A stretch of 15,868 nt of DNA. It comes from a virus. Taxonomy: Duplodnaviria; Heunggongvirae; Uroviricota; Caudoviricetes. Both the position numbers and the translations under genes were made by a program. This document shows positions 1 to 15,509 of this stretch, one piece after another (the stretch's first letter is position 1; the number at the start of each line of letters is the position of its first letter). The stretch lies in the IMG/VR virus record IMGVR_UViG_3300029288_007064. One strand, given 5' to 3'. Below the pieces are notes generated by a model, which was not told where the DNA came from, did not search any database, and saw nothing but the letters and a program-made list of their open reading frames with translations.

Positions 1-1039
1 ATGGTTTAAACCTCTTTGTTTGTGATTCAAATACATAGAATAATACAACTACTACAAATAATGGAACTATAAAATACATTATTATTAGTGGAATAGTGAG
101 TTGTAAAGCAAGTGCGTTATTCAACATATGCGCTACAATTGGGAAAGCTACTGTTCCAGTAAGTACCATTCCTGTTATCCAAGTAAATGATTGGAACTCT
201 AAGAACATTAAGTCTGATGCATTCTTATCTCCAACTGCAATGTGGAATAATGAAAAGACCAAGCTCACAGCCAATACTACTATGATAAACATTGGACCAG
301 GAAACCATTCTGCCATTCTTTTTGTTGCAGCAAACGAAGTTACAACAAGCATTGTTCCATAAAATACTACAAGTCTAAAGAAAAACTCTTCATTTATAGG
401 AGTCATTATTACATTGTAAAATATTAGCTGTGCATTATTGGATACTTCCTCTAACGTAGATATTGAACCAAGAGGCATAACTGAAGCGGTATGGAATAAT
501 GTACCGAATAGTATAAGAAAACCAAAAGTTACGATAATTGCTCCCATAACACCTATCAACGCATTTTCTTTTGTTCCAAATAGAGGAAGTCCTTCTGACG
601 TGTTTGGTTTTTTAAGAAGACTAACTGAGAAGATTATAACGAATGGAATGACATACAACACCGCTCTCATTGTATCTTTTTCAAACAAAAGAACTGCAAC
701 TGTTGTAATAAGCATTACAATAGCTAACATTCTTGCTATGTTTATTCCCCAAGCATCGTCTTTGTAAAAACCAAAGAGCATATTATAGCATTTCTTCCTA
801 TCAATAATTGAGAAAGCGATAATCCCTAAACACATTATCGACATAAAAGTAAGAGGTGCTATAAATGGAATGCTAGCAACACATTCTTTTGCTCCATATT
901 CATCAAATCCATATGTATAACCATCTACGCAATAACAATTACCATCTGTTGTGGATTCTTCCATGTGCTCTCCTGTACATTCTGCAAAACAGAATCCAAT
1001 GAGCATTAAAAATACCAAGTATTTTATAGTTTTAGACAT
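1..1039 (-). CDS. CPBP family (CAAX protease/Abi, Rce1-like) intramembrane glutamic protease with N-terminal signal peptide and EGF-like Cys module; 3' end truncated by the window edge
   Basis: Not in the ORF track. Manual translation from ATG at 1039 (overlapping the stop of the 1320-aa gene) gives an open frame of 346 codons to the edge with no stop. MSKTIKYLVFLMLIGFCFA signal, about 8-9 hydrophobic segments, and the three CPBP motifs in order: PINEEFFFR (EE at 391-386), VFSLFH (H at 244-242) and AHMLNN (133-116). Confidence 0.9.
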   Translation of the reverse strand, partial: MSKTIKYLVFLMLIGFCFAECTGEHMEESTTDGNCYCVDGYTYGFDEYGAKECVASIPFIAPLTFMSIMCLGIIAFSIIDRKKCYNMLFGFYKDDAWGINIARMLAIVMLITTVAVLLFEKDTMRAVLYVIPFVIIFSVSLLKKPNTSEGLPLFGTKENALIGVMGAIIVTFGFLILFGTLFHTASVMPLGSISTLEEVSNNAQLIFYNVIMTPINEEFFFRLVVFYGTMLVVTSFAATKRMAEWFPGPMFIIVVLAVSLVFSLFHIAVGDKNASDLMFLEFQSFTWITGMVLTGTVAFPIVAHMLNNALALQLTIPLIIMYFIVPLFVVVVLFYVFESQTKRFKP

Positions 1040-4000
1040 ATGTTTCCACCCCAATCAATCTTAATGTATTCGTTAGCATTGCACTATTAAGTATTATTAT
1101 AAATACTCCAAATAACAAAGAAGGTACTGCGGTTGATAATAATCCCCAATCAAGCAAGTTTTTTCTTTTAATATAAATTATTGTAATAACTATTGCTATT
1201 AAAACTCCTAATAGCAAACCACCAAGCCAAAGATATTCCCCTAGATATAAACTATATAATGCTACTTGTTCGCAATACAATAAAGTTATTAAGTGTGCAA
1301 TCGAAGAAGACGTATCCAAAGGACACCATGTTATCGATGGTTTTATCGCACCATCTGTTAATGCTACAATTATTGATACTATTTCAGTCCCATATTCTAA
1401 AGAAAGATATGCATCTGCCGGTTCGAAAAATGGTAATGTTTCTGCTATTTGTTCTGGTGGTGTTCCTACGGGCGGAGAAGGCAATTCTGTATCTTCCGGA
1501 GGTGTTTGTTGATTATTTTCAGAATCCTCTTCTGTTGGTGTTTCTTCCGGAGGTACTTCTTCGGGCGGAGGTTCTTCCGGTGGAGGAGAACCCATGCTAT
1601 CATCACCACTTGTTCCACCACCTCCTCCTGCCGGTACACATGCCCACGCAACACAAATGAAACTAGCAGCACAATCACCTACATTATTGCATGTGCCTAC
1701 TAGATTTGTTATTGGAAGAAAATCTGTTCCAAGCGGTGCGATAACGTATGTTATATCTCCTATTCCATCTCCTGTTATATCAACCCAATTATACCCTCCC
1801 CAATAGTTTCCTCCTATTGTAGTCCCCCCTATTACATTCACTCCTATTGTTGATGTAGTATTCCAAAATGTATTTGTTCCGTTATCATATCCAAATAGCG
1901 TATCGGTAAAGTTGTTATTATATATAAGGTTATTCGTTCCGTTTCCTATTGCTATTTGGTAATTTATGTTCTCATATACTGTGCTATTGGTGAATGTGTT
2001 ATTATCTGCCGTTCCATTAATGTTTATTCCGTTAAAGAAATTTGTTATAGTAAAATTACCTATCGTGCTATTGCTTGTAGAATTTATATAGACTCCATAT
2101 GTTCCAACCGTTCCATTTCCGGTTATTGAATAACCATTACCATTTAAGTTTATTCCACTCGCATTTATTGTAAAGCACGTGTCTCCATTTATTAATACGT
2201 TCCCTGAAAGTGTTCCATCTGTATTTACAATACCACAACCATTATAATAAAATAAATACGGTCCATCTGTATTTGCATATACTACTCCATCTATAAGAGA
2301 ATATGTAATTATATCGTATGTGTTGTTAAAAAGGTGTTCTGAATATGTAAGTGTGTAATAACACGAACGATTATCCGCAGCCATCGTACATGTGTGGTTT
2401 ATTCCATCTATTTCCACATAAGAAACATCTGTCATATTAGCAGATGAAGAGAAATTAAACACCATTCCGTAGGTATTGTTGTTTGTTCCGTTTAACGGTG
2501 ATGGTGATACTAGTGTTATTACCGGAACAAAATCATTGGTGATAGGAATATAATCAAAACCGTTTGTAGTAATGAATAATGATGCATCTCCTATTCCGTC
2601 ATTATCAGTATCTACAACGGTATAATTGCTCCACCAATTTCCTCCGATAACATTTCCACCTATGATGTTTGTTCCAACTACTTCTGTTGTGTTCCAATAT
2701 GTATTCGTGCCGTTGTCATATCCGAGAAGAGTATCTGTAAAGTTATTGTTATAAATTAAATTGTTTGTTCCATTACCTATCGCAATCTGATAATTTACAT
2801 TGTTGTATAAGGTGCTGTTGGTTATTGTATTGTTATCTGCTGTTCCATTTACTAATATTCCATTGAAAAGATTTGTGATAGTGAAGTTTCCTATAGTATT
2901 ATTGCTCGTAGCATTAACATATATACCATAAGTACCTGCTGTTCCGTCTCCAGTAATAGAATAACCCGCTCCGTTAAATGTTATTCCACTAGTATTTATT
3001 GTGAAGCAAGTTCCTCCGTTTCTTGAAACATTAGCAAGCAATGTTCCCGATTGATTAATTATTCCACAACCATAATACGGAATAATTCTTGTTTCGTTTG
3101 TAGGATACCAATTTCCCCCTTCACTTATCCACCCTTTTATGTCATAGGTGTTATTGAAAACGTGTTCATAATATGATAGAGTATAACTACAAGATAAACT
3201 ATCTGCTGATAATGTACCAGTTTGGTTTATTCCGTCAATTTCCATTAAACAACTATCCATTGCGGTGTAGTATGTAAAATTGAATGTCATTATATAGGTA
3301 AAGTTATTTGTATTATTTGTAGAAGTAGGAGAAACGAAAACACCGGCGTGGTTATTCGTTAGAGGATAATAATCATAGTTTGCACCTCCGAGCACCGAAT
3401 AAATATTGTCTCCTATTCCATCACCATCGGTATCAAATCCAAGATAATCCGAGTAGAAGTTTCCACCTATGTTCGCTCCACCTAAGATGTTCGTACTTAA
3501 TGTTTTTGTTGTGTTCCAATAATTAGTGCCATTATCATAAGATACTCCTTGTATTCCTGTTGCATTAATAATATTATTATAAAGTAGATTTGAAGAAGAT
3601 GATGATATAAAAAATTGATATAGTGTATTGTTTATAGCGTAATTAGAAGAAAAATTATTATTAAAACTATATATGTAAAAACCGTATGTATTATTGTATG
3701 CAGTATTATTAGTAATATTGGTACTATTTGCACTTAATCCGAGCGTAATTCCGTATTTGGAATTGTTATATGCAATATTTTTATATAGTGTATTATTGGC
3801 GTTTGAAATAACAAATCCTGCATATGTACCCGTTCCTCCATTACTATAAGCAACATTAGAAGTTAAATTATTATATATGGTTCCGATATAAAATCCATAT
3901 CTAGAATTACTATGCGCTGTATTTGAAGTAATATTATTGGATGTGGAATTAGTAACTAAGTATATACCATAATATGTATTATAATATAATGTATTGTTAG

Positions 4001-4994
4001 TAATAATGTTATAAGAACTATTTGAAAAGTAAATACCATATCTAGAATTGTTATAAATGGTATTGTTGGTTATGTTATTATTATTAGAATTTGATACAAA
4101 CCAAATTCCTGCATACGTACCTACTCCTCCATTATTATATATAGTATTATTAAAAAACATAATATAGGTATTAGAATACAAATAAAATCCTTGCAATGTA
4201 TTATTATATACACTATTATTTTCATATGTGATATTATAATCTTCTGATGTTCCTATTCCATAATAGTTATTATTGTATATCTTATTATAATAAAATTTGT
4301 TTGAATTAGTGTTAAATAAAGAAAATATTCCACGTGTATTATTATATATAGTATTGTTTTCTATGATGCTATTATTTGTATATTCTAAATAAAGTCCAGA
4401 CAAAGTATTATTATACATGGTATTATTTATAATTATATTTTCTAAATTGTTATCAAGAATAATACCGTAGTTATTATTACTAAATGAAACACTACTAGTA
4501 ATGGTGTTATTATCCGAAAAGTAAATAATCATACCATCATCATTTCTAAATGTAGTGCTATTGGTAATACTATTATTGATTCCAGAAATTCGAATTCCAT
4601 ATTCTGTATTGTTGTATGAAGTACAATTGGAAATAATGCTATTATTAGAATTATAGATATAAATACCTGTGATGGTATAATTAGATATAGATGTACAATT
4701 CTTTATTGTAACATTTGACACAGAACCATTTACTAAAATTCCATACGCTAATAATGTAGAATCATTATGAGTGATATTATAACCGGCACAATCAAAAAGT
4801 ACATTAGATGAAGATATTTTTACACACGCATTTGCTCCAAAAGGATTTGCTCCATACGGTGCTCCAATATAATTATTTGCCATCGTATATGTTCCTGCTG
4901 CGGTTATATTATCACAATTGATAGAATAACCTAAACCTAGAAGTAATAACACCGCAATAAAAATCTTCATGTTCATTACGTTGTTATTCAACAA
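1032..4994 (-). CDS. Large membrane-anchored surface glycoprotein with parallel beta-helix (PbH1/NosD/CASH-like) repeats; putative adhesin or receptor-binding protein
   Basis: Signal peptide MKIFIAVLLLLGLGYS; many NNTxxNNxxGIxL beta-helix coils; three GGN(F/W/Y)xxxYxxxDxxxDGIGD motifs typical of archaeal NosD-like surface proteins; very dense N-x-S/T sequons; small Cys module, Gly/Pro/Glu linker and C-terminal TM helices. The true start may be the TTG at 4994 or a nearby ATG. Confidence 0.85.
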   Translation of the reverse strand: MLNNNVMNMKIFIAVLLLLGLGYSINCDNITAAGTYTMANNYIGAPYGANPFGANACVKISSSNVLFDCAGYNITHNDSTLLAYGILVNGSVSNVTIKNCTSISNYTITGIYIYNSNNSIISNCTSYNNTEYGIRISGINNSITNSTTFRNDDGMIIYFSDNNTITSSVSFSNNNYGIILDNNLENIIINNTMYNNTLSGLYLEYTNNSIIENNTIYNNTRGIFSLFNTNSNKFYYNKIYNNNYYGIGTSEDYNITYENNSVYNNTLQGFYLYSNTYIMFFNNTIYNNGGVGTYAGIWFVSNSNNNNITNNTIYNNSRYGIYFSNSSYNIITNNTLYYNTYYGIYLVTNSTSNNITSNTAHSNSRYGFYIGTIYNNLTSNVAYSNGGTGTYAGFVISNANNTLYKNIAYNNSKYGITLGLSANSTNITNNTAYNNTYGFYIYSFNNNFSSNYAINNTLYQFFISSSSSNLLYNNIINATGIQGVSYDNGTNYWNTTKTLSTNILGGANIGGNFYSDYLGFDTDGDGIGDNIYSVLGGANYDYYPLTNNHAGVFVSPTSTNNTNNFTYIMTFNFTYYTAMDSCLMEIDGINQTGTLSADSLSCSYTLSYYEHVFNNTYDIKGWISEGGNWYPTNETRIIPYYGCGIINQSGTLLANVSRNGGTCFTINTSGITFNGAGYSITGDGTAGTYGIYVNATSNNTIGNFTITNLFNGILVNGTADNNTITNSTLYNNVNYQIAIGNGTNNLIYNNNFTDTLLGYDNGTNTYWNTTEVVGTNIIGGNVIGGNWWSNYTVVDTDNDGIGDASLFITTNGFDYIPITNDFVPVITLVSPSPLNGTNNNTYGMVFNFSSSANMTDVSYVEIDGINHTCTMAADNRSCYYTLTYSEHLFNNTYDIITYSLIDGVVYANTDGPYLFYYNGCGIVNTDGTLSGNVLINGDTCFTINASGINLNGNGYSITGNGTVGTYGVYINSTSNSTIGNFTITNFFNGININGTADNNTFTNSTVYENINYQIAIGNGTNNLIYNNNFTDTLFGYDNGTNTFWNTTSTIGVNVIGGTTIGGNYWGGYNWVDITGDGIGDITYVIAPLGTDFLPITNLVGTCNNVGDCAASFICVAWACVPAGGGGGTSGDDSMGSPPPEEPPPEEVPPEETPTEEDSENNQQTPPEDTELPSPPVGTPPEQIAETLPFFEPADAYLSLEYGTEIVSIIVALTDGAIKPSITWCPLDTSSSIAHLITLLYCEQVALYSLYLGEYLWLGGLLLGVLIAIVITIIYIKRKNLLDWGLLSTAVPSLLFGVFIIILNSAMLTNTLRLIGVETYV
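1704..3353 (-). repeat. Internal tandem duplication of a ~275-aa module (Ig-like spacer plus short beta-helix plus DGIGD cap) in the 1320-aa protein
   Basis: Units 3353-2535 (273 aa) and 2534-1704 (277 aa) share EIDGIN, FNNTYDI, GCGI, TCFTIN, GYSITG, NYQIAIGNGTNNLIYNNNFTDTL, GYDNGTNT and DGIGD; each ends in PITN, as does the first unit (PLTN). Confidence 0.95.
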
Positions 4995-7004: not shown

Positions 7005-8081
7005 TTATTTCTTTATTATCGCATAATACATTAACACTCCTATTGCTAGTACAAGTATTCCAATAACAACATATATAGCTATATCATTGTTAGATGTAGG
7101 AGTAGTGGTGGTTTCGGAAGGTTCAGAAGGTATAGTAGGTATCGTTTCCTCGTCCCCACCACTACTCGCAACTATACATTGTCCATCTAATTTTTCATAT
7201 CCGTTATTACATTCATATGCACAAGACGTTGTACTCCAATAAGAGTTTGATGGCTGTGTTCCGGATGCGGTGCATTCTGAAGGTGTAGGTGTTATCGGTG
7301 TAGTTGGACAATCTGCTTCACATGCTCCGTTCTTTTCGGATGTTTTGCATATTCCATCACCACAACCCAATGGACAAGATGTTCCTGATATCCATTGTCC
7401 ATCTACCGAGCACTTCTTATAATTTACTGTAGAACCATCCCAGCATTCTTTTGTTTGGAATGTTCCAGGAGTGCAATCCCAAACAACATCGTCGGTATTC
7501 TTTATATAGAATTGAAATGTCCAAGACCTTTCGTGGTCTGCAACATATTCGTTGTATGCCTCTTCTGTTACACATTCTATATCACTTGTTGCGCATTCTG
7601 CTGTGGTTGCGTCATAATACGCTTTTATATAGTTCATATCTAAATATGTTATTGAAGTAAGATGAGCGACGATTGTAGTTTTTCCGTTGTTAAAATAACA
7701 CAATTCATCAACATTTTCTTTTACTGTACATGGAGCAGAACCGGAATCCCCATTCTTGCTGGTATATGTAAAAGGTATAGTTTCTGAACCATCGTCTACA
7801 TTTAATACTACAGGACCATTTTTCTTTATTGTAAATCCATCAATAGCATAAGAAGGATGCAGTTGCTCTCCATTTTCTGTTCCAGAACACCATTTTGATA
7901 CGTCTAGAGATGCGGTGCTTAACGAAGTCCATTTATACGTTCCTGCTACCCAATAACCCGATGGCGAGGAGTAATATGAACCTAAAATTGTCTGTCCAAA
8001 ATCTGTAATGATAGCCATAGATAAAACAACTACAAATGCAATAATAATGTAATGTGTTTGATTTAACTTTATTTTATTCAT
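7005..8081 (-). CDS. Cys-rich membrane-anchored surface protein
   Basis: 358 aa; N-terminal hydrophobic segment, CWDGS and CGDGICxxxExxxxCxxDC motifs, Pro/Thr linkers, CAYECNNGY module, C-terminal TM plus KK; GGTGA RBS; ATGA overlap with the upstream gene. Confidence 0.85.
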   Translation of the reverse strand: MNKIKLNQTHYIIIAFVVVLSMAIITDFGQTILGSYYSSPSGYWVAGTYKWTSLSTASLDVSKWCSGTENGEQLHPSYAIDGFTIKKNGPVVLNVDDGSETIPFTYTSKNGDSGSAPCTVKENVDELCYFNNGKTTIVAHLTSITYLDMNYIKAYYDATTAECATSDIECVTEEAYNEYVADHERSWTFQFYIKNTDDVVWDCTPGTFQTKECWDGSTVNYKKCSVDGQWISGTSCPLGCGDGICKTSEKNGACEADCPTTPITPTPSECTASGTQPSNSYWSTTSCAYECNNGYEKLDGQCIVASSGGDEETIPTIPSEPSETTTTPTSNNDIAIYVVIGILVLAIGVLMYYAIIKK

Positions 8082-10117
8082 TTTATCACCGTCATAATAT
8101 TTTTCCTAAATATAAATACTATTGCAATAATTACTATTCCTACACCAACAATTATTAGTAGAGTATTCATCGAAAGCAATCCTTCTTGCGGACCAACGTT
8201 TGAAGGTGTTTCTCCTACTCCACTTGTTTGCGTTTCTTCTTCTGTCGAGGAAGGAGTTGTAATACTATCTGCAACTATTTGCGATACTGAAGGTGTAGAA
8301 CTTATGAATTCATAGTCTTCTGTTATTTCTTGTGAATTTCCAAAAGAATCTATCAAATAACCATACTCCGCAACGTATTTACAATATGGTGAAGAAAGCC
8401 ATATTTGGTGTGTTTTGTTTTCTGGAATAAATAGCATGTTATCTGCAATATAGTTCTTTATTCCAGTTTGCTTATTTAGTTCTTTGCAATGTTTTTCTCC
8501 AGCATCGTTTCTTGGATCTACTTCACTTTCTATATAACTATTTCCTGAAGTTCCGTCTTCTCTTTGATAATTCGAAGTTGAATACTCTTCTAAATCAATA
8601 ATTTCACAATCCGATTCAAATATATTGTGTAATGCCGTGTTTTCATCTGATTCTAATGTAGAATCTTTATATTGGTTTGGACAAATCCATTCGCAACCAT
8701 ATTGCGTATATACTGCTACGTGCTGCGCGCTTGGCTTATTTTTATCGCAGAACGGAAGTATTTTTATTCTAACTTCTTTTGTGTCTTTTTGGTCTGGGTC
8801 TGTAACAGAAGATACTTGAACGGTATAGGTTTTAATAATTCCGGTTCCTTGGAAAAACACATCTACAGATTGCGTTTCACCGGAAGCAAGCGTTACTCTC
8901 TTGCTTACTGTTGCGATATCTGAACCACCAAGTAGAGCAATATCAACCGCACCACTTACATTTGCATTATTCTTCACTATTACGGTTATTTTGTTATTTG
9001 CAGATGGTGTGTAATCAGAAGCAACTGTTACATTAACTATTTCAGGTATAGCAACAGGTACGGTTATTCCAAGTGTTCCTTGCGATAATATTATTGTAGT
9101 TTCTGGAATAACTGCTTGCGTTTTTGGTACGCATCTTATTTTAGTTGAAAATCCATCCGACGTTGCATTATCGCAATTATAAAATTCTGCTGCGTGCGTT
9201 GTTGGTATTTGTGCTAGAGCAGATTGGCAGGATTGAACTCCAGATACCGAATTTACGTTTGTACACATTGAAACTACTTGATTTAATATGTATTTATCTT
9301 TTATCTGATAGTTCATTGTATTATATGGTCTCCAAACAGAATAATCTGCTGCCGGAACTGGACAAGTTCTTTGTCCGGTAAGGTATCCTGTAAGTTTAAC
9401 ATACATCACTCCTTCTAATTGCTTTTCTAGTTCTTCTGATGTAACTTCAAGAGATTTTTCTACGCTACCTATTTTTAGAGTTGTATTAATCTTAGTAAAG
9501 AATGTAGTAGAAGAATCTATCAAATGAACTGTTCCTGCTATTGCTGATTTATATGCTGGACATTCACATGTTGCAGATGAATCACAAGCGTTACCAGAGC
9601 TTCCCCAAGAGCTACTTGTAATTGTTCCAGCTAATATTGTATAACCTGTTTTAGCACTACAACCACAAGAAGAGCCTACTGCTGGAGGAGATACTCCGCA
9701 AGAAACTGTTTTTGTCGAAGAAACAACTGTCCAATTCTGTATTATATAAGTAATGTTTGTCACTTGATATTCACATGCTTGCTCAGTTATTCCTTGTTCT
9801 ATTGTAAATGGTTCTGCAACAAGCAATCCGAATTTTTGATATATTAATTCAGGAGTAAATGTTCCTTCTGCATATTGCCCTGAACCATCCACTCTTGTAA
9901 CCATAGTCCAAGAACCATTATTAAATATTGGATTAGTAGATTGATAACTCATTTGGTCAAGTGAAACAACTGTAAATCCAGTTAATGAACCAAGAGGAGT
10001 TGAGATATTAAGATTTGGTGCAAGAACAAGATATGCAATAAGCGATATACATAAAACTAGTCCTACAAGTAAGTAAGGGTTCTTCATTATTTTGTGGAGA
10101 GTTATTGCACCACTCAT
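8078..10117 (-). CDS. Type I membrane glycoprotein, putative class II fusion/fusexin-like protein (paralog B)
   Basis: 679 aa; N-terminal signal/anchor, ~310-aa beta-rich region with a Cys-rich loop, Ig-like domain (GITVPVAIPEIVNV ... ITVIVKNNANVSGAVDI ... VTLASGETQSVDV), Cys module, Ser/Thr/Glu linker, single C-terminal TM plus RK. The CDS is certain; the fusexin call is pattern-based inference. Confidence 0.55.
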   Translation of the reverse strand: MSGAITLHKIMKNPYLLVGLVLCISLIAYLVLAPNLNISTPLGSLTGFTVVSLDQMSYQSTNPIFNNGSWTMVTRVDGSGQYAEGTFTPELIYQKFGLLVAEPFTIEQGITEQACEYQVTNITYIIQNWTVVSSTKTVSCGVSPPAVGSSCGCSAKTGYTILAGTITSSSWGSSGNACDSSATCECPAYKSAIAGTVHLIDSSTTFFTKINTTLKIGSVEKSLEVTSEELEKQLEGVMYVKLTGYLTGQRTCPVPAADYSVWRPYNTMNYQIKDKYILNQVVSMCTNVNSVSGVQSCQSALAQIPTTHAAEFYNCDNATSDGFSTKIRCVPKTQAVIPETTIILSQGTLGITVPVAIPEIVNVTVASDYTPSANNKITVIVKNNANVSGAVDIALLGGSDIATVSKRVTLASGETQSVDVFFQGTGIIKTYTVQVSSVTDPDQKDTKEVRIKILPFCDKNKPSAQHVAVYTQYGCEWICPNQYKDSTLESDENTALHNIFESDCEIIDLEEYSTSNYQREDGTSGNSYIESEVDPRNDAGEKHCKELNKQTGIKNYIADNMLFIPENKTHQIWLSSPYCKYVAEYGYLIDSFGNSQEITEDYEFISSTPSVSQIVADSITTPSSTEEETQTSGVGETPSNVGPQEGLLSMNTLLIIVGVGIVIIAIVFIFRKNIMTVIK

Positions 10118-10393: not shown

Positions 10394-12487
10394 TCACTTT
10401 TTTACCTTTACCTTACCCTTACCCTTAAAGAACACCAAATATGCTCCCAAGCCAACAACTACGATTACCATAAAACCTACAGCAATCCATAGTAAATTGC
10501 TTAGTAAATCTTGTATTGCACATCCAGCTTCATCTATTGGCTTAGTAATTGCTCTAGTTGGACCACACAATAAATCAAGTGAGCCACATGGTGTTGCATA
10601 TTTTGCTATTATTCCAGCTTTACAAGATGTATCTTCCTCTTCTGTGTCTTTTACACAAACACTTTGTTGTAAAGTATTATTAAATGATTCGTGATATCCA
10701 CCATTGCAATTCCATGCACAATCTGGTTGCTTACCTGTTCCTGTGTATACAGAATATTGAGGTTTAGTTGTGCAATCTTTTCCTTGTTCATAAGGAACGC
10801 AAGTACATGTTTTGGACGTGTCTGGATAATAATTTGCTTGACAATTTGTTAAATCACATTTCCAAGTGCATCCTTCTCCTTGTCCGTACCAAGTCCATTC
10901 TCCTGCTGTTGGAGGGGTAGTTTGTTTGCACAATTCAACTACCTCTGTATTAAATGTACAAGTTCCCGTAGTTGCACCAATACCATTTACTGCTTTAGCT
11001 GAGCACGTACTTTTTCCTGGTTCTGTGCTTAATATATTAAAAGTAAAAGGTGTTATTCCACCATTTCCGTTTACAGTAAGAGTTTTAGAAGTTGTTCCTG
11101 AAGGAGTAACTAAATCACAGTTAATAAATGAAACCGTAACTGCACCAGTATCTCCGGTATTTGTAGCAGTTATCGTAACAGAATCTACATCGTTTTCTAT
11201 TGAATTAAGCGTAGTTGTAGGGCATTTTAAACTAGCTATTGCCACCGGAGTATATATTCCTACATTCTTCGCGTTTAAATCAATAGTAAGCACCGGAATA
11301 GCACCGCTTACATCTCTATCAAAGTATAATACCCCACTAGATACTCTTGATTGCTCTGAAGAGCTAAGAAGTTGTTGTACGGGTTCTAATGTTTTACATT
11401 TTTGCATTGTAGTTCTATAATCTACTATTTCAGTTTGAATATCAGTTAATGTTTTACTTGTTCCATAAGCAAGAGAAGGTTTCGTTTTCCCTGTATATGC
11501 AATCCAAGCATTTGTATTTATAAATCTATTCTTGCCTAATGTGCTATCATAAAAGAAATTTAAATCAGAACCTGGAAGAGCAAATGAAGAAGCATAATTA
11601 ACAAATCCTCCTAGAAGTGATGCTTTTCTTATAATTGTTCCTCCTACGGTTGTTTCGCCATTTTCATCAATAGTAACTTTATTTGCTTGTACTATTTTAT
11701 CGCTAGTAGAATCTATTGTAAAGGAATCCTTAGCAAGACCATTAATATATGCCGTTCCCGTAATTTTTGTAAAATAATAACCATCCTTTCCTGTGAATAT
11801 TGTATCCCTTGATTTTTCATAAACTTTCGCACAAATCCATGTATTAGAATTAGCTTTATATTCTATCATTGTTCCTCCATTAGCATAACAAACGGAATTA
11901 TAATAAGGTTTGCAATCACCGAGTGCTCCATTCAAACTCGCAGGAACACCACCTGAATATGTATGAGCACCACCCAATAAATATGTTCCACACGTTCCTC
12001 CCCAATTAGCTGAATTTAAAGTTACATCTTTATAAGTGATATCATAATCTACTAAATCATAACTAGAACCTGCTACTGCATAAGTATATTTATATCCGTT
12101 TCCATCTAACTTTACTCCTAGAGCAAATTTTTCTTTTGGTTTCGTACTAGTTCCTTCTACATTAACAGTTTTTGCTGTAAAATCGTCTTCATCGGTATAA
12201 ACAGTATCTCCGATTGCCCAATCATCTTGTCCGTTCAATAAAACTTCAACTCTTGCTATATCAACACTATCATCAGCTTCTGCAGAAGTAAAATATTTTA
12301 TTGTAGAAATATCTAAAATTTCAGCACTATTAGAATGTGTATATGGAAGAGTTGTTCCGCCGGTTAAATTTGGAATGGTTATTACATTAGTGAATAGAAG
12401 TGCTGATAAAATGACTATTAAACCAATTCCTAAAAGTAGACTTTCTTTCCCTTTGACTTGTGCTAGTATGTTTGTCATCGCAACCAC
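10394..12487 (-). CDS. Type I membrane glycoprotein, putative class II fusion/fusexin-like protein (paralog A)
   Basis: 697 aa (start may be the ATG at 12478, 5 nt after GGTGG); N-terminal signal/anchor, ~370-aa beta-rich region with loop NWGGTCGTYLLGG, Ig-like domain (LTIDLNAKNVGIYTPVAI ... TITATNTGDTGAVTVSFINC ... STCSAKAVNG ... TCTFNT), Cys modules, C-terminal TM plus KGKGKVKVKK. The CDS is certain; the fusexin call is inference. Confidence 0.6.
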   Translation of the reverse strand: MVAMTNILAQVKGKESLLLGIGLIVILSALLFTNVITIPNLTGGTTLPYTHSNSAEILDISTIKYFTSAEADDSVDIARVEVLLNGQDDWAIGDTVYTDEDDFTAKTVNVEGTSTKPKEKFALGVKLDGNGYKYTYAVAGSSYDLVDYDITYKDVTLNSANWGGTCGTYLLGGAHTYSGGVPASLNGALGDCKPYYNSVCYANGGTMIEYKANSNTWICAKVYEKSRDTIFTGKDGYYFTKITGTAYINGLAKDSFTIDSTSDKIVQANKVTIDENGETTVGGTIIRKASLLGGFVNYASSFALPGSDLNFFYDSTLGKNRFINTNAWIAYTGKTKPSLAYGTSKTLTDIQTEIVDYRTTMQKCKTLEPVQQLLSSSEQSRVSSGVLYFDRDVSGAIPVLTIDLNAKNVGIYTPVAIASLKCPTTTLNSIENDVDSVTITATNTGDTGAVTVSFINCDLVTPSGTTSKTLTVNGNGGITPFTFNILSTEPGKSTCSAKAVNGIGATTGTCTFNTEVVELCKQTTPPTAGEWTWYGQGEGCTWKCDLTNCQANYYPDTSKTCTCVPYEQGKDCTTKPQYSVYTGTGKQPDCAWNCNGGYHESFNNTLQQSVCVKDTEEEDTSCKAGIIAKYATPCGSLDLLCGPTRAITKPIDEAGCAIQDLLSNLLWIAVGFMVIVVVGLGAYLVFFKGKGKVKVKK

Positions 12488-14048: not shown

Positions 14049-15509
14049 TCATTCATCTACGTCGGAGTATTCGTCTTCTTCAAGCATTTTAGTTCGTGCT
14101 TCAGACGGTGCGCCTTGTTGAACGTTTTCTTGCATAATAGCGCTACGTGGGAAGATAGGGAAGAATTTTTTAAGACCTTCTTCGCTATCTGGTTGAATAA
14201 GCACGAATTGTTTAACTGGCTCTATATCTTTCCATCTTAATTTTTTGCATTCTTCTTCTATTACCCATTTAGGTACTCCTCTATCACGTAATAACTTCTC
14301 TTGTTCTTCATTCATTATTTTGCAAGTTACTACATACTTACTTTGCTTTAGTATTACTCTATCGAGGAGATTTGGTTCTTGTGTAATAAATATGCCTGTC
14401 ATTCCGAACTGACCATATCTAGTAAGCATTTGTCTAAAAGCAAATCTACCAGGACTTCTTACAAAATTATTTACTATCGTGTCTGCCTCATCCATCACTG
14501 TAACAATAGGTCTATCCAATAACCCTTTAATATATCTTGTTCGCAAATCAGGTTTAAGAAATGCGACTCTACTTTGAATAACCTTTTCAGCAGCAATTTT
14601 AATATATGTTTGAAGTGTGGATTCATCTTCGACATCAATTGCCGTTTCCAAGAAGACTATTTTGTTATTCGCTAGTTTTTCTTCGAAATCAAAAGAATCT
14701 CTTTTTCCACCGAGTTCTCCACCGTCTACTCTATCTCTAAATTTATATAGCAAATCTCTAGAAACGCTTTGCTTTTTTCTTTCTTTCTCTTGGTCTTTTA
14801 TATCTTCAATAACTTTATTAAGCATATCAAGAGTATCTTTTGGCTTTTTGTTTAATACTCTTCTTAAAGCCATTCCAGCGGGTGACATCTGTCCTACGTT
14901 AAGAAATCTACACCACAATTTAATTCTAGACGGTAGTCCTAAAACATTAAAATCAGTCGGATTAATTCTATAAACATAAAATCCGTTTCCGGTTTTTATT
15001 CCGGTTCCCCTAGCTAAAAATTCAGGTACTGCATAACAAGCGTTTGGATAACCAGTTGGCTTTATTCCAAACTTCTTAAATTGTGTAATCGCTCTTGGGT
15101 CTTCTTGTTTTTCCGCAACATTAGTCATTTCGTTCTTTGGGTCTATGCCAAAATAATAATAACCTCTATCACCATGTATTTGGTCTAATGCAAAAGTCTT
15201 AACCCATTGTGTTTTACCTGCTCTTCTGAGCATACACACAACCATACCAAAAGATTTACCATCTGACCAATCAAGTGTTACGGGTTCATAGCTTTCAAAA
15301 TCTTCAACACCAAGAAGTAGATGTCCTTTTGGTATGCTTATTTCTTTCATATCTTCTGGAATAAATACTTCACCGTATTTTCCTCTCAAGGATGGTTTCT
15401 TAGAGTATTTAGCAAAATCAGCTAATAATATTTTATCGAAACCTTCTTTGTCTTTGTCTTCTTCTCTTTTAAATATAAAATATGAAGATGCAGATATAGT
15501 ATTCACCAA
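14049..15509 (-). CDS. HerA/FtsK/VirB4-superfamily P-loop ATPase (putative DNA packaging or translocation motor)
   Basis: 486 aa; Walker A-like MLRRAGKT (15233-15210), IDPKNEM motif typical of HerA/VirB4/VirD4, Walker B VMDEAD (14498-14481), then FG-x4-FITQEP and ILKQ; acidic C-tail; no TM. Confidence 0.85.
   Translation of the reverse strand: MVNTISASSYFIFKREEDKDKEGFDKILLADFAKYSKKPSLRGKYGEVFIPEDMKEISIPKGHLLLGVEDFESYEPVTLDWSDGKSFGMVVCMLRRAGKTQWVKTFALDQIHGDRGYYYFGIDPKNEMTNVAEKQEDPRAITQFKKFGIKPTGYPNACYAVPEFLARGTGIKTGNGFYVYRINPTDFNVLGLPSRIKLWCRFLNVGQMSPAGMALRRVLNKKPKDTLDMLNKVIEDIKDQEKERKKQSVSRDLLYKFRDRVDGGELGGKRDSFDFEEKLANNKIVFLETAIDVEDESTLQTYIKIAAEKVIQSRVAFLKPDLRTRYIKGLLDRPIVTVMDEADTIVNNFVRSPGRFAFRQMLTRYGQFGMTGIFITQEPNLLDRVILKQSKYVVTCKIMNEEQEKLLRDRGVPKWVIEEECKKLRWKDIEPVKQFVLIQPDSEEGLKKFFPIFPRSAIMQENVQQGAPSEARTKMLEEDEYSDVDE

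What the first reader, a model, noticed from the sequence alone, without database searches (positions are those of the whole stretch)
1..1039. Unannotated CPBP intramembrane protease fused to an EGF-like extracellular module; candidate maturation protease
Seen: a 346+ codon ORF missed by the track with intact EExxxR, FxxxH and HxxxN motifs, preceded by a signal peptide and ECTGEHMEESTTDGNCYCVDGYTYGFDEYGAKEC (979-881), a 4-Cys CxCxxGY EGF-like module. Established: CPBP proteases cleave substrates at or in membranes and are normally just the multi-TM core; many class II fusion systems need proteolytic priming. Inference: it is coupled to the adhesin gene and could process the locus's own membrane proteins, with the Cys module aiding substrate or partner recognition.
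Basis: partly seen in the sequence, partly recalled or inferred. Interest (0 to 1): 0.75.

Follow-up and report, generated by a model that had tools for sequence, protein, structure and literature searches.

The report
Viral-element membrane protease paired with adhesin tail
This is a real, complete gene for a very divergent Rce1/CPBP-type membrane-embedded protease on an uncultivated archaeal virus-like element; in every relative found it sits directly behind a large surface protein with one conserved membrane tail, so it is most likely that protein's dedicated processing enzyme, while its cysteine-rich front end is unique to this element and is not demonstrably EGF.

Summary
Window 1039..2 (-) is a complete 346-codon gene, not "346+". 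It matches Pfam Rce1-like above the curated cut-off. EExxxR, FxxxH and HxxxN are intact, and the predicted fold is closest to the two solved CPBP structures, SpdC and MmRce1. A signal-peptide-like helix and a 4-Cys stretch (979-881) precede the core.

The family is tiny: 7 proteins at E<=1e-3 among 1.84 billion representatives. None has the N-terminal extension. "EGF-like" rests only on a CxCxxGY pattern; no HMM or confident fold supports it.

New here: in seven lineages the gene lies 0-1 small genes downstream of a large surface protein. These share a roughly 110-residue C-terminal tail: a short motif, TM, basic cluster, second TM. A YdjM-type hydrolase gene lies nearby in five. This resembles the dedicated CPBP sorting proteases MrtJ and myxosortase, which are encoded beside their client, but it fails their membership tests.

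The proposed link to class II fusogen priming has no support.

Best reading: a dedicated maturation or sorting protease for the adjacent adhesin's tail. This is inferred, not shown. The scan has already noted Rce1-like genes beside surface-protein genes on other archaeal elements. Moderate interest.

The parts
2..1039 (-). Complete CDS of a 346-aa CPBP/Rce1-like intramembrane protease. The stop codon straddles window position 1.
   Evidence: Translation. Public gene call of 346 aa with PF02517. Pfam E=6.9e-8, above the gathering score. AF2 model pTM 0.75. Best structural matches are SpdC 6u0o_A (Z 10.8) and MmRce1 4cad_C (Z 9.5).
983..1039 (-). Residues 1-19: signal-peptide-like N-terminal hydrophobic helix, either cleaved or an extra anchor helix.
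   Evidence: Sequence and helix 3-18 in the model. No signal-peptide predictor was available. The cleavage site after Ala19 is inferred.
881..979 (-). Residues 21-53: 4-Cys module (C-x13-C-x-C-x2-G-Y-x11-C), predicted to be extracellular.
   Evidence: Sequence. Absent from all 7 relatives. No Pfam hit at E<=10. pLDDT below 50 with three short strands. Not matched by a profile of the Cys modules of the neighbouring spike-like proteins.
803..868 (-). Residues 58-79: extra first membrane helix. It places the N-terminus outside and precedes the 8-helix CPBP core.
   Evidence: AF2 helix 60-79. K+R count is 12 in the loops assigned inside versus 3 outside when the N-terminus is outside (counted).
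110..433 (-). Residues 203-310: Pfam Rce1-like match holding the three catalytic motifs, EExxxR (391-374), FxxxH (256-242) and HxxxN (130-116).
   Evidence: E217, F262, H266, H304 and N308 are invariant in the 8-sequence family alignment.
1045..1052 (-). Shine-Dalgarno-like GGGGTGGA, 5 nt upstream of the ATG and inside the end of the adhesin gene.
   Evidence: Sequence. Function inferred.
1032..4976 (-). Upstream gene: 1314-aa NosD/right-handed beta-helix surface protein ('adhesin'). It is 1320 aa if read from the TTG at 4994.
   Evidence: Pfam NosD 4.8e-69 and Beta_helix 4.1e-49. Gene call.
1035..1379 (-). Conserved C-terminal tail of the adhesin (last 115 aa): Cys pair, motif C-E-x2-A-L-Y-S-L (1274-1248), TM, KRK cluster, second TM, short end. 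This is the proposed client signal of the protease.
   Evidence: The tail aligns with those of the genes upstream of the CPBP relatives. Leave-out profiles: a window+L002 profile finds L005 at E=8.6e-10. A window+L002+L005 profile finds L009 at 3.4e-7 and L011 at 8.3e-6, each at the very C-terminus.

Best explanation
The gene encodes a functional but very divergent CPBP/Rce1-type glutamic intramembrane protease. It has 9 membrane helices with the N-terminus outside and the C-terminus inside.

It belongs to a small clade known only from uncultivated, probably archaeal (DPANN-associated) virus- or plasmid-like elements. In that clade the gene is kept directly behind a large glycosylated surface protein. 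The ectodomain of that protein is mosaic, but its last ~110 residues are conserved: a short motif [C/A/G]-[E/D]-x2-[G/A/T]-L-[L/Y/Q]-[S/A]-[L/M/I], a membrane helix, a basic cluster, a second membrane helix and a short end.

The most likely mechanism is that adhesin and protease are made from one coupled message, the tail docks in the membrane onto the protease core, and the protease cuts in or next to the tail. This would mature, release or re-anchor the ectodomain. It would be a dedicated one-enzyme, one-client arrangement like MrtJ with JDVT-CTERM proteins. A YdjM-type membrane metal hydrolase encoded next to it may carry out a second step.

The signal peptide plus 4-Cys module is a recent addition found only in this element. 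It sits outside the membrane next to helix 1 and probably helps bind a partner.

Shown: gene, family, motifs, fold, synteny, tail conservation. Inferred: catalysis, the substrate, the cleavage, and the roles of the Cys module and YdjM.
For: Family and fold:
- Pfam PF02517 above the cut-off.
- Catalytic E, H, H, N and the motif-2 Phe are invariant across the family alignment.
- AF2 core is confident, pTM 0.75.
- The top two structural matches are the two solved CPBP proteins, Z 10.8 and 9.5. APH-1 is next at Z 5.0, level with the unrelated rows below it.

Coupling: 8-nt overlap of stop and start, with an SD-like site.

Synteny in seven lineages at 23-54% CPBP identity:
- Window/L001, L002-4, L005-7/L013, L008, L009, L010 and L011.
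- The gap between the tail-bearing gene and the CPBP gene is -8 to +5 nt in five lineages.
- One small gene is inserted in the other two.

Tail conservation:
- Tested by leave-out profiles against 489 ORFs of the loci.
- The motif lies at a fixed 64-81 residues from the C-terminus, and only in the CPBP-adjacent protein of each related locus.
- Searching outward from the tail returned only proteins followed by a CPBP gene.

YdjM (PF04307) lies 0-4 kb downstream in five of the seven lineages.

Precedent:
- CPBP enzymes as sorting proteases encoded adjacent to a single client, with unrelated N-terminal domains: bioRxiv 10.1101/2023.06.07.544157.
- Cleavage shown experimentally for myxosortase: PMC11980579.

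Topology: the positive-inside count places the Cys module outside, which explains why only this version needs a signal peptide.
Against: - No cleavage, expression or protein data exist.
- All seven lineages are related elements, so conserved gene order may partly reflect common descent rather than function.
- The upstream proteins also share patches of ectodomain similarity, so the tail is not the only shared part.
- The tail is not a classical tripartite sorting signal. It has a second membrane helix after the basic cluster.
- Its two cysteines are both missing in L008 and L010. This looks like a disulfide pair rather than a modified invariant Cys.
- The best NCBIfam match, MrtJ, scores 23.4 bits against a cut-off of 75.
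- The relative P0008 lacks the second Glu and the Arg of motif 1.
Confidence: 0.5

Rival explanations
1. Scaffold or regulator rather than protease. Like SpdC with the glycan hydrolase SagB, the CPBP body binds the membrane helix or helices of the beta-helix surface protein (possibly a glycan-cutting enzyme). It would position or control that protein without cutting it.
For: The best structural match is SpdC in its complex with SagB (6u0o_A, Z 10.8). The neighbour is a NosD/pectate-lyase-type beta-helix protein. The conserved tail is mostly membrane helices.
Against: SpdC-type scaffolds are described as non-catalytic (from my own knowledge; compare CflP, PMC13692083 abstract). Here E217, H266, H304 and N308 are invariant across the clade, which argues for retained catalysis.
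Confidence: 0.15
2. Immunity, exclusion or host-directed protease. Like Abi/CPBP bacteriocin-immunity proteins, it would protect the carrier cell or block superinfection. Alternatively it would cut a host membrane protein, unrelated to its neighbours.
For: CPBP members on mobile elements have been annotated as self-immunity proteins, for example on an Asgard archaeal element (PMC11529989). The family name itself comes from bacteriocin processing and immunity.
Against: No bacteriocin-like or toxin gene is recognisable in the locus. This reading does not explain the fixed position behind one tail-bearing gene in seven lineages, or the translational coupling.
Confidence: 0.15
3. One reading: a priming protease for the 697- and 679-aa spike-like proteins (and the 318- and 358-aa proteins), analogous to the activation of class II fusion machinery.
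For: The degenerate tail motif occurs 4 times in the 5,049 residues of the locus. Three of these lie immediately before the C-terminal anchor of the adhesin, the 697-aa protein (DLLSN) and the 679-aa protein (GLLSM). All genes are co-oriented.
Against: A profile of the motif-TM-basic core does not detect either protein; the 679-aa protein scores E=3.7 and the 697-aa protein is not among the 25 best-scoring ORFs listed. No relative's locus held here contains homologues of those proteins next to the CPBP gene. Fusogen identity was not confirmed by earlier follow-ups on this window and was not tested here.
Confidence: 0.1
4. The N-terminal 53 residues are not part of the protein. Translation would start further in, and the 'fusion' would be an ORF-extension artefact.
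For: All relatives start at the position equal to residue ~54. The module has no detectable homologue.
Against: There is no in-frame ATG, GTG or TTG between residue 1 and M66; residue 54 is GTT. M66 lies inside helix 1, which is conserved in the closest relatives. The ATG has an SD-like site and overlaps the upstream stop. The extension reads as a coherent signal peptide plus acidic Cys-rich segment on the side predicted to be outside.
Confidence: 0.05

Closest known systems
MmRce1 (Methanococcus maripaludis Rce1, PDB 4CAD) and the Pfam PF02517 Rce1-like/CPBP family
   Same: Pfam match above the cut-off. The same three motifs occur in the same order and the same helix orientation. The predicted fold aligns over 160 residues at rmsd 3.6, Z 9.5.
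   Different: Only about 11% identity. A family profile does not reach any solved CPBP chain at E<=1. There is one extra N-terminal membrane helix plus an extracellular Cys module. No CAAX-type prenylated substrate is expected. The gene is carried by a virus-like element.
MrtJ / JDVT-CTERM, and the myxosortases MrtX/MrtC/MrtP and MrtA / CGP-CTERM (Haft, bioRxiv 10.1101/2023.06.07.544157; Guo, Haft & Wall, PMC11980579)
   Same: A CPBP core encoded directly next to a single surface-protein client that carries a conserved C-terminal membrane signal (motif, TM, basic cluster). The N-terminal domains of the enzymes vary freely. An archaeal example exists (MrtA).
   Different: The MrtJ model scores 23.4 bits against a cut-off of 75. 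The tail has a second TM after the basic cluster and no invariant Cys. No known sorting-signal model reaches its cut-off on the tail. The setting is a mobile element, not a cellular housekeeping system.
SpdC (LyrA) of Staphylococcus aureus in complex with SagB (PDB 6U0O)
   Same: Best structural match: Z 10.8, 178 residues aligned. It is a CPBP-fold protein that pairs in the membrane with a single-pass glycan-active enzyme.
   Different: SpdC works as a non-catalytic partner (from my own knowledge). This protein keeps all catalytic residues.
EGF-like domains (Pfam EGF families; PROSITE EGF_2 pattern, recalled from memory)
   Same: A C-x-C-x2-G-Y core, a short predicted beta-hairpin and an extracellular location.
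   Different: Four cysteines, not six. There are 11 residues, not 4-8, between the aromatic residue and the last Cys. No Pfam hit even at E<=10. The model is low-confidence. Atlas structural neighbours are an unspecific mix of small Cys-rich modules.

Membership tests
CPBP / Rce1-like intramembrane proteases (Pfam PF02517) | Match to the family HMM above the curated gathering score | tested here: met
   33.1 bits against 22.4, E=6.9e-8, residues 203-310. The public precomputed hit agrees.
CPBP / Rce1-like intramembrane proteases (Pfam PF02517) | Motif 1 EExxxR, motif 2 FxxxH and motif 3 HxxxN/D, in this order on separate membrane helices | tested here: met
   E217-E218-R222, F262-H266 and H304-N308 lie on model helices 203-235, 247-270 and 298-311. 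E217, F262, H266, H304 and N308 are invariant in 8 sequences.
CPBP / Rce1-like intramembrane proteases (Pfam PF02517) | Fold of the solved family members | tested here: met
   VIA-align against 48,161 chains ranks SpdC 6u0o_A (Z 10.8) and MmRce1 4cad_C (Z 9.5) first and second. The next row is Z 5.0. Foldseek alone found nothing.
CPBP / Rce1-like intramembrane proteases (Pfam PF02517) | Endopeptidase activity | not testable with these tools
   Needs expression and a cleavage assay.
Mrt-type CPBP sorting proteases (MrtJ, MrtX/C/P, MrtS, MrtA) | Match to one of the NCBIfam equivalog models above its cut-off | tested here: not met
   The best match is NF033192 (MrtJ) at 23.4 bits against a cut-off of 75. 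No other Mrt model was listed.
Mrt-type CPBP sorting proteases (MrtJ, MrtX/C/P, MrtS, MrtA) | Client with a short tripartite C-terminal signal: a motif with an invariant Cys abutting the TM, then an Arg-rich end at the very C-terminus | tested here: not met
   The adhesin tail has motif, TM and basic cluster, but then a second TM and 13 more residues. Both Cys are missing in L008 and L010. No sorting-signal model reaches its cut-off.
Mrt-type CPBP sorting proteases (MrtJ, MrtX/C/P, MrtS, MrtA) | Protease gene adjacent to its single client (as for MrtJ, 16 of 17 cases) | tested here: met
   Directly adjacent in 5 of 7 lineages, with one small gene between in the other 2.
EGF-like domain | Match to an EGF-family HMM | tested here: not met
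   No Pfam family at E<=10 for residues 18-58, and none for the whole protein at E<=1 apart from Rce1-like.
EGF-like domain | Six cysteines forming three disulfides in an EGF fold | tested here: inconclusive
   Only four Cys lie in the module. The model shows three short strands at pLDDT below 50. Atlas neighbours are unspecific small Cys-rich modules with TM 0.4-0.6 over about 30 residues.
Shared Cys module of the locus's 358-, 679- and 697-aa proteins (C-x16-19-C-x-[WY]-x-C-x2-[GQY]-Y) | Detected by a profile of those modules | tested here: not met
   The profile recovers its own three proteins (1e-16 to 1e-29), but the CPBP ORF is not among the 30 best-scoring ORFs listed (search at E<=50). 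The spacing also differs: C-x-C rather than C-x3-C.
SpdC-like non-catalytic CPBP scaffolds | Loss of the catalytic Glu/His residues | tested here: not met
   All catalytic residues are present and conserved in the clade.

The most novel reading that the evidence does not exclude
Archaeal virus-like elements carry their own, so far undescribed protein-sorting system. It would consist of a CPBP protease (with a YdjM-type hydrolase) that recognises a new two-helix C-terminal signal on the element's main adhesin, and cuts it to mature or re-anchor the protein on the virion or cell surface. In this element the enzyme has additionally gained an extracellular Cys module for partner recognition.
Probability: 0.35. 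Interest if true: 0.7.

Novelty: new variant of a known kind. Interest (0 to 1): 0.45.

Why it matters
CPBP proteases are abundant in prokaryotes, but a function is known for very few. Only recently was one shown to sort surface proteins: myxosortase (PMC11980579).

A clade carried by archaeal virus-like elements, locked to one adhesin with a conserved tail, would extend that principle to mobile elements of DPANN-type archaea. It would also offer a compact two- or three-gene system (tail, protease, YdjM) that can be tested in a surrogate host. Finally, it names a concrete candidate for how these unstudied elements mature their surface proteins.

If the pairing turns out to be only inherited gene order, the finding reduces to a divergent member of a known family.

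Tried and rejected
Searches that found little or nothing:
- No whole genome is held for the window.
- PHROGs gave nothing for the protease.
- IMG/VR scans with the CPBP alignment and with the 486-aa ATPase found no relatives.
- The genome-contig scan found only a remote bacterial CPBP, in Sporosarcina at 25% identity.
- The metagenome-contig scan found none.
- A word-indexed profile search with the 8-sequence alignment added no new members.
- A family profile against PDB sequences gave only chance hits to acetylcholine-receptor chains at E>=0.04.
- Foldseek against PDB had no match at E<=0.001.

Jobs without a usable answer:
- Complex prediction of the protease with the adhesin tail returned 'no answer', score 0.00. 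This is no evidence either way.
- No RNA holder was listed among the sequencing runs, so nothing can be said on expression.
- The laid contigs were identical to the window, so no variation was available to test selection on the N-terminal module.

Ideas tested and dropped:
- That the protease's Cys module is a copy of the spike proteins' Cys module. Rejected at the sequence level.
- That the 697- and 679-aa anchors are homologous to the adhesin tail. Not supported by the core profile.
- That known C-terminal sorting-signal models (CGP-CTERM, MYXO-CTERM, JDVT-CTERM, Loki-CTERM, LPXTG) fit any tail. Only sub-threshold scores were seen.
- That the tail search would reveal an independent lineage. 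P0011/L013 proved to be the same lineage as L005, with 81% CPBP identity.
- A literature search for a YdjM-CPBP link found nothing.

Full report
**1. What is in the sequence**

The minus strand of window 1039..2 carries an ATG-started ORF of 346 codons. I fetched the parent contig, a 93,958-bp metagenome assembly. Its public gene calls list the same product at exactly 346 residues, with a precomputed Rce1-like hit. The gene is therefore complete, with its stop codon straddling window position 1, and it is not uncalled in public data.

The ATG (1039-1037) overlaps the last codons and stop of the upstream 1314-aa gene by 8 nt. It follows GGGGTGGA at a spacing of 5 nt. Between codon 1 and M66 there is no in-frame ATG, GTG or TTG; codon 54 is GTT. 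M66 lies inside the first membrane helix.

Contig fragments from a groundwater study, with zero differences from the window, cover 801-962, 918-1189 and 1005-1290. The junction and the Cys stretch are therefore not an assembly accident.

**2. Family**

- Pfam gives one hit, PF02517 Rce1-like, E=6.9e-8 and 33.1 bits against a gathering score of 22.4, over residues 203-310.
- The three CPBP motifs are present: E217-E218-x3-R222, F262-x3-H266 and H304-x3-N308.
- In an alignment of the eight family members, E217, F262, H266, H304 and N308 are invariant.
- An AlphaFold2 model built on that alignment has pTM 0.75 and a confident core from residue 60 to the end.
- Foldseek against the PDB found nothing.
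- The exhaustive VIA-align search placed the two solved CPBP proteins first and second: SpdC 6u0o_A (Z 10.8, 178 residues aligned) and MmRce1 4cad_C (Z 9.5, 160 residues, rmsd 3.6). APH-1 was third at Z 5.0, level with the unrelated rows below it.

Membership in the CPBP family is met on HMM, motifs and fold. Activity cannot be tested here.

**3. Topology and the N-terminal addition**

The model has helices at 60-79, 96-119, 123-142, 157-182, 203-235, 247-270, 275-294, 298-311 and 316-343. With the N-terminus outside, the loops assigned to the inside hold 12 Lys+Arg and those outside hold 3.

From what I recall of the MmRce1 structure, the motif-bearing helices then run in the same directions as there. 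On that reading the protein is the 8-helix core plus one extra helix in front.

Residues 1-19 look like a signal peptide: two Lys, twelve hydrophobic residues, and Ala at -1. Residues 20-57 are acidic and hold C21, C35, C37 and C53. This is consistent. A 38-residue acidic segment that must cross the membrane needs a signal, whereas the relatives, with only 4-6 residues ahead of helix 1, do not.

**4. Is the module EGF-like, and does the fusion exist elsewhere?**

- Pfam finds nothing in residues 18-58 even at E<=10.
- The model is below pLDDT 50 there, with three short strands.
- The ESM Atlas model's structural neighbours are a mix of small Cys-rich modules (EB, follistatin N-terminal, meckelin, TIL-like) at TM 0.4-0.6 over about 30 residues. 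That is not informative.
- The stretch has four cysteines, not six. The spacing after G-Y is 11 residues, outside the 4-8 of the PROSITE EGF_2 pattern as I recall it.
- The neighbouring 358-, 679- and 697-aa proteins share a different Cys module (C-x16-19-C-x-W/Y-x-C-x2-G/Q-Y). A profile of those modules does not pick up the protease.
- An exhaustive phmmer search of 1.84 billion representatives found only seven proteins at E<=1e-3. All start at query residue 55 or later.
- The closest relatives, at 54% identity and 292-295 aa, align from residue 54-57 onward.

The module is therefore real as sequence and unique to this element. 'EGF-like' is only a pattern resemblance.

**5. Surroundings here and in relatives**

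In the parent contig the gene order is:

- 1314-aa NosD/beta-helix protein
- CPBP
- YdjM (PF04307, 165 aa)
- 40-aa protein
- 2591-aa DUF2341 protein

.

I looked up the contigs of all relatives:

| Locus | CPBP identity to window | Gene order |
|---|---|---|
| L002-L004 | 54% | NosD protein (650-722 aa), 115-aa soluble protein, CPBP, YdjM, 1278-aa surface protein |
| L005-L007 | 35% | 610-aa, 966-aa, CPBP, three small genes, YdjM |
| L008 | 28% | end of a large gene, CPBP, several small genes, YdjM |
| L009 | 26% | NosD protein, 67-aa, 1511-aa, CPBP, 348-aa protein, then integrase |
| L010 | 24% | end of a large gene, 161-aa HEAIH protein, CPBP |
| L011 | 29% | DUF2341 protein, 815-aa, CPBP, several genes, YdjM |

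The gap between the large gene and the CPBP gene is -8, +5, +1, +2 and +4 nt in the five directly adjacent cases.

**6. The conserved tail**

The large upstream proteins differ in length (464 to 1511 aa) and are mosaic, sharing only patches of ectodomain. Their last ~110 residues, however, align end to end. The order of features is:

- a Cys pair 16 residues apart
- the motif [C/A/G]-[E/D]-x2-[G/A/T]-L-[L/Y/Q]-[S/A]-[L/M/I]
- a membrane helix
- a basic cluster
- a second membrane helix
- a short end

To avoid circularity I built profiles that left the targets out and searched all 489 ORFs of at least 50 aa in the loci.

- A profile of the window and L002 tails found the L005 tail at E=8.6e-10.
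- Adding L005 found L009 at 3.4e-7 and L011 at 8.3e-6. These were the best non-training hits, each aligned over the whole profile at the very C-terminus.
- L010 (E=0.11) and L008 (E=0.71) were weak but in the same position.

In the related loci the motif occurs 64-81 residues from the C-terminus, and only in the protein next to the CPBP gene. A profile search outward from the tail returned three proteins, each followed by a CPBP gene. The one new protein belongs to the L005 lineage, so it adds no independent lineage.

Both cysteines are absent together in L008 and L010. This suggests a disulfide pair rather than a modified invariant Cys.

**7. Mechanism**

CPBP enzymes are now known as sorting proteases. 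Haft linked MrtJ to the JDVT-CTERM signal largely because the two genes were adjacent in 16 of 17 cases. He also noted that myxosortases have 'radically different N-terminal domains' around a conserved core, and proposed an archaeal example, MrtA with CGP-CTERM (bioRxiv 10.1101/2023.06.07.544157). Cleavage by myxosortase MrtX has been shown experimentally (PMC11980579).

The arrangement here has the same logic: one protease, one neighbouring client with a conserved membrane tail, and coupled translation. I therefore read the gene as the dedicated maturation or sorting protease of the adhesin tail, possibly acting with YdjM.

It is not a member of the Mrt families:

- The MrtJ model scores 23.4 bits against a cut-off of 75.
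- The tail has a second helix after the basic cluster and no invariant Cys.
- No sorting-signal model reaches its cut-off.

Where the cut falls cannot be told.

**8. Caveats and rivals**

- All lineages are related elements, so part of the synteny is inheritance.
- A complex prediction gave no answer.
- The SpdC-SagB precedent allows a non-cutting scaffold role, but the catalytic residues are conserved.
- An immunity or exclusion role, as annotated for a CAAX-like protein on an Asgard element (PMC11529989), does not explain the fixed pairing.
The degenerate tail motif occurs four times in the 5,049 residues of the locus, three of them directly before the C-terminal anchors of the adhesin, the 697-aa protein and the 679-aa protein. 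A profile of the motif-helix-basic core does not detect these two proteins, and fusogen identity remains unconfirmed (not tested here).

**9. Novelty**

This is a divergent member of a known enzyme family with a unique N-terminal addition. It sits in a conserved pairing that works like, but does not belong to, the described CPBP sorting systems.

Notes from this scan on other genomes already describe Rce1-like genes beside surface-glycoprotein genes on DPANN-associated elements. The general theme is therefore not new to the scan. The conserved tail and the Cys-module fusion are what this report adds.

Noticed in passing
window 10496-10510 (697-aa protein) and 8168-8182 (679-aa protein), minus strand: Both spike-like proteins carry DLLSN or GLLSM immediately before their C-terminal membrane anchor. 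This is the same 5-residue pattern as the motif in the adhesin tail. The pattern gives 4 hits in 5,049 residues of the locus, 3 of them just before an anchor. A profile does not support homology.
   Followed up: partly
L014:16510-16593 (C-terminus of the 2591-aa protein, outside the window); L002:7990-8084; L009:1150-1232: Three other large surface proteins of these elements end in a Cys abutting a single membrane helix plus a basic end: CCP...RRRKKD, MCLP...KKKK and PLCLG...KKN. This architecture resembles the Cys-type tripartite signals that CPBP sorting enzymes process. No known signal model reaches its cut-off.
   Followed up: partly
L001:15691-16188 (just left of the window) and L002, L005, L008, L011: A YdjM-type membrane metal-dependent hydrolase gene (PF04307) accompanies the CPBP gene in five of seven lineages, and is directly adjacent in two. 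The window and L002 versions are 30% identical. No literature link between the two families was found.
   Followed up: partly
window 7176-7274, 8588-8770, 10628-10945, minus strand: The 358-, 679- and 697-aa proteins share a membrane-proximal Cys module (C-x16-19-C-x-W/Y-x-C-x2-G/Q-Y). It occurs twice in the 697-aa protein and has no Pfam match.
   Followed up: partly
L010:912-1397: In one relative a 161-aa soluble protein with an HEAIH zinc-metalloprotease-like motif is inserted between the tail-bearing gene and the CPBP gene.
   Followed up: no
L008:1278-1622: In another relative the gene directly after the CPBP gene encodes a 114-aa membrane-anchored protein with 8 cysteines. It may be a free-standing counterpart of an extracellular Cys module.
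   Followed up: no
L008:1861-3702 and L011:7632-11117: An AdoMet-decarboxylase-like gene and a small acetyltransferase gene recur between or beside the CPBP and YdjM genes in two lineages.
   Followed up: no
window 1-1400: Fragments identical to the window occur in groundwater metagenomes from a different study than the landfill sample that probably yielded the contig. The same element, or a near-clone, lives in more than one habitat.
   Followed up: partly
window 14049-15509, minus strand: The 486-aa protein gives only weak matches to the terminase large subunit (PHROG 2666, 9e-5) and to HerA (NCBIfam, 1.3e-3). It looks like a packaging or translocating ATPase of uncertain type.
   Followed up: no
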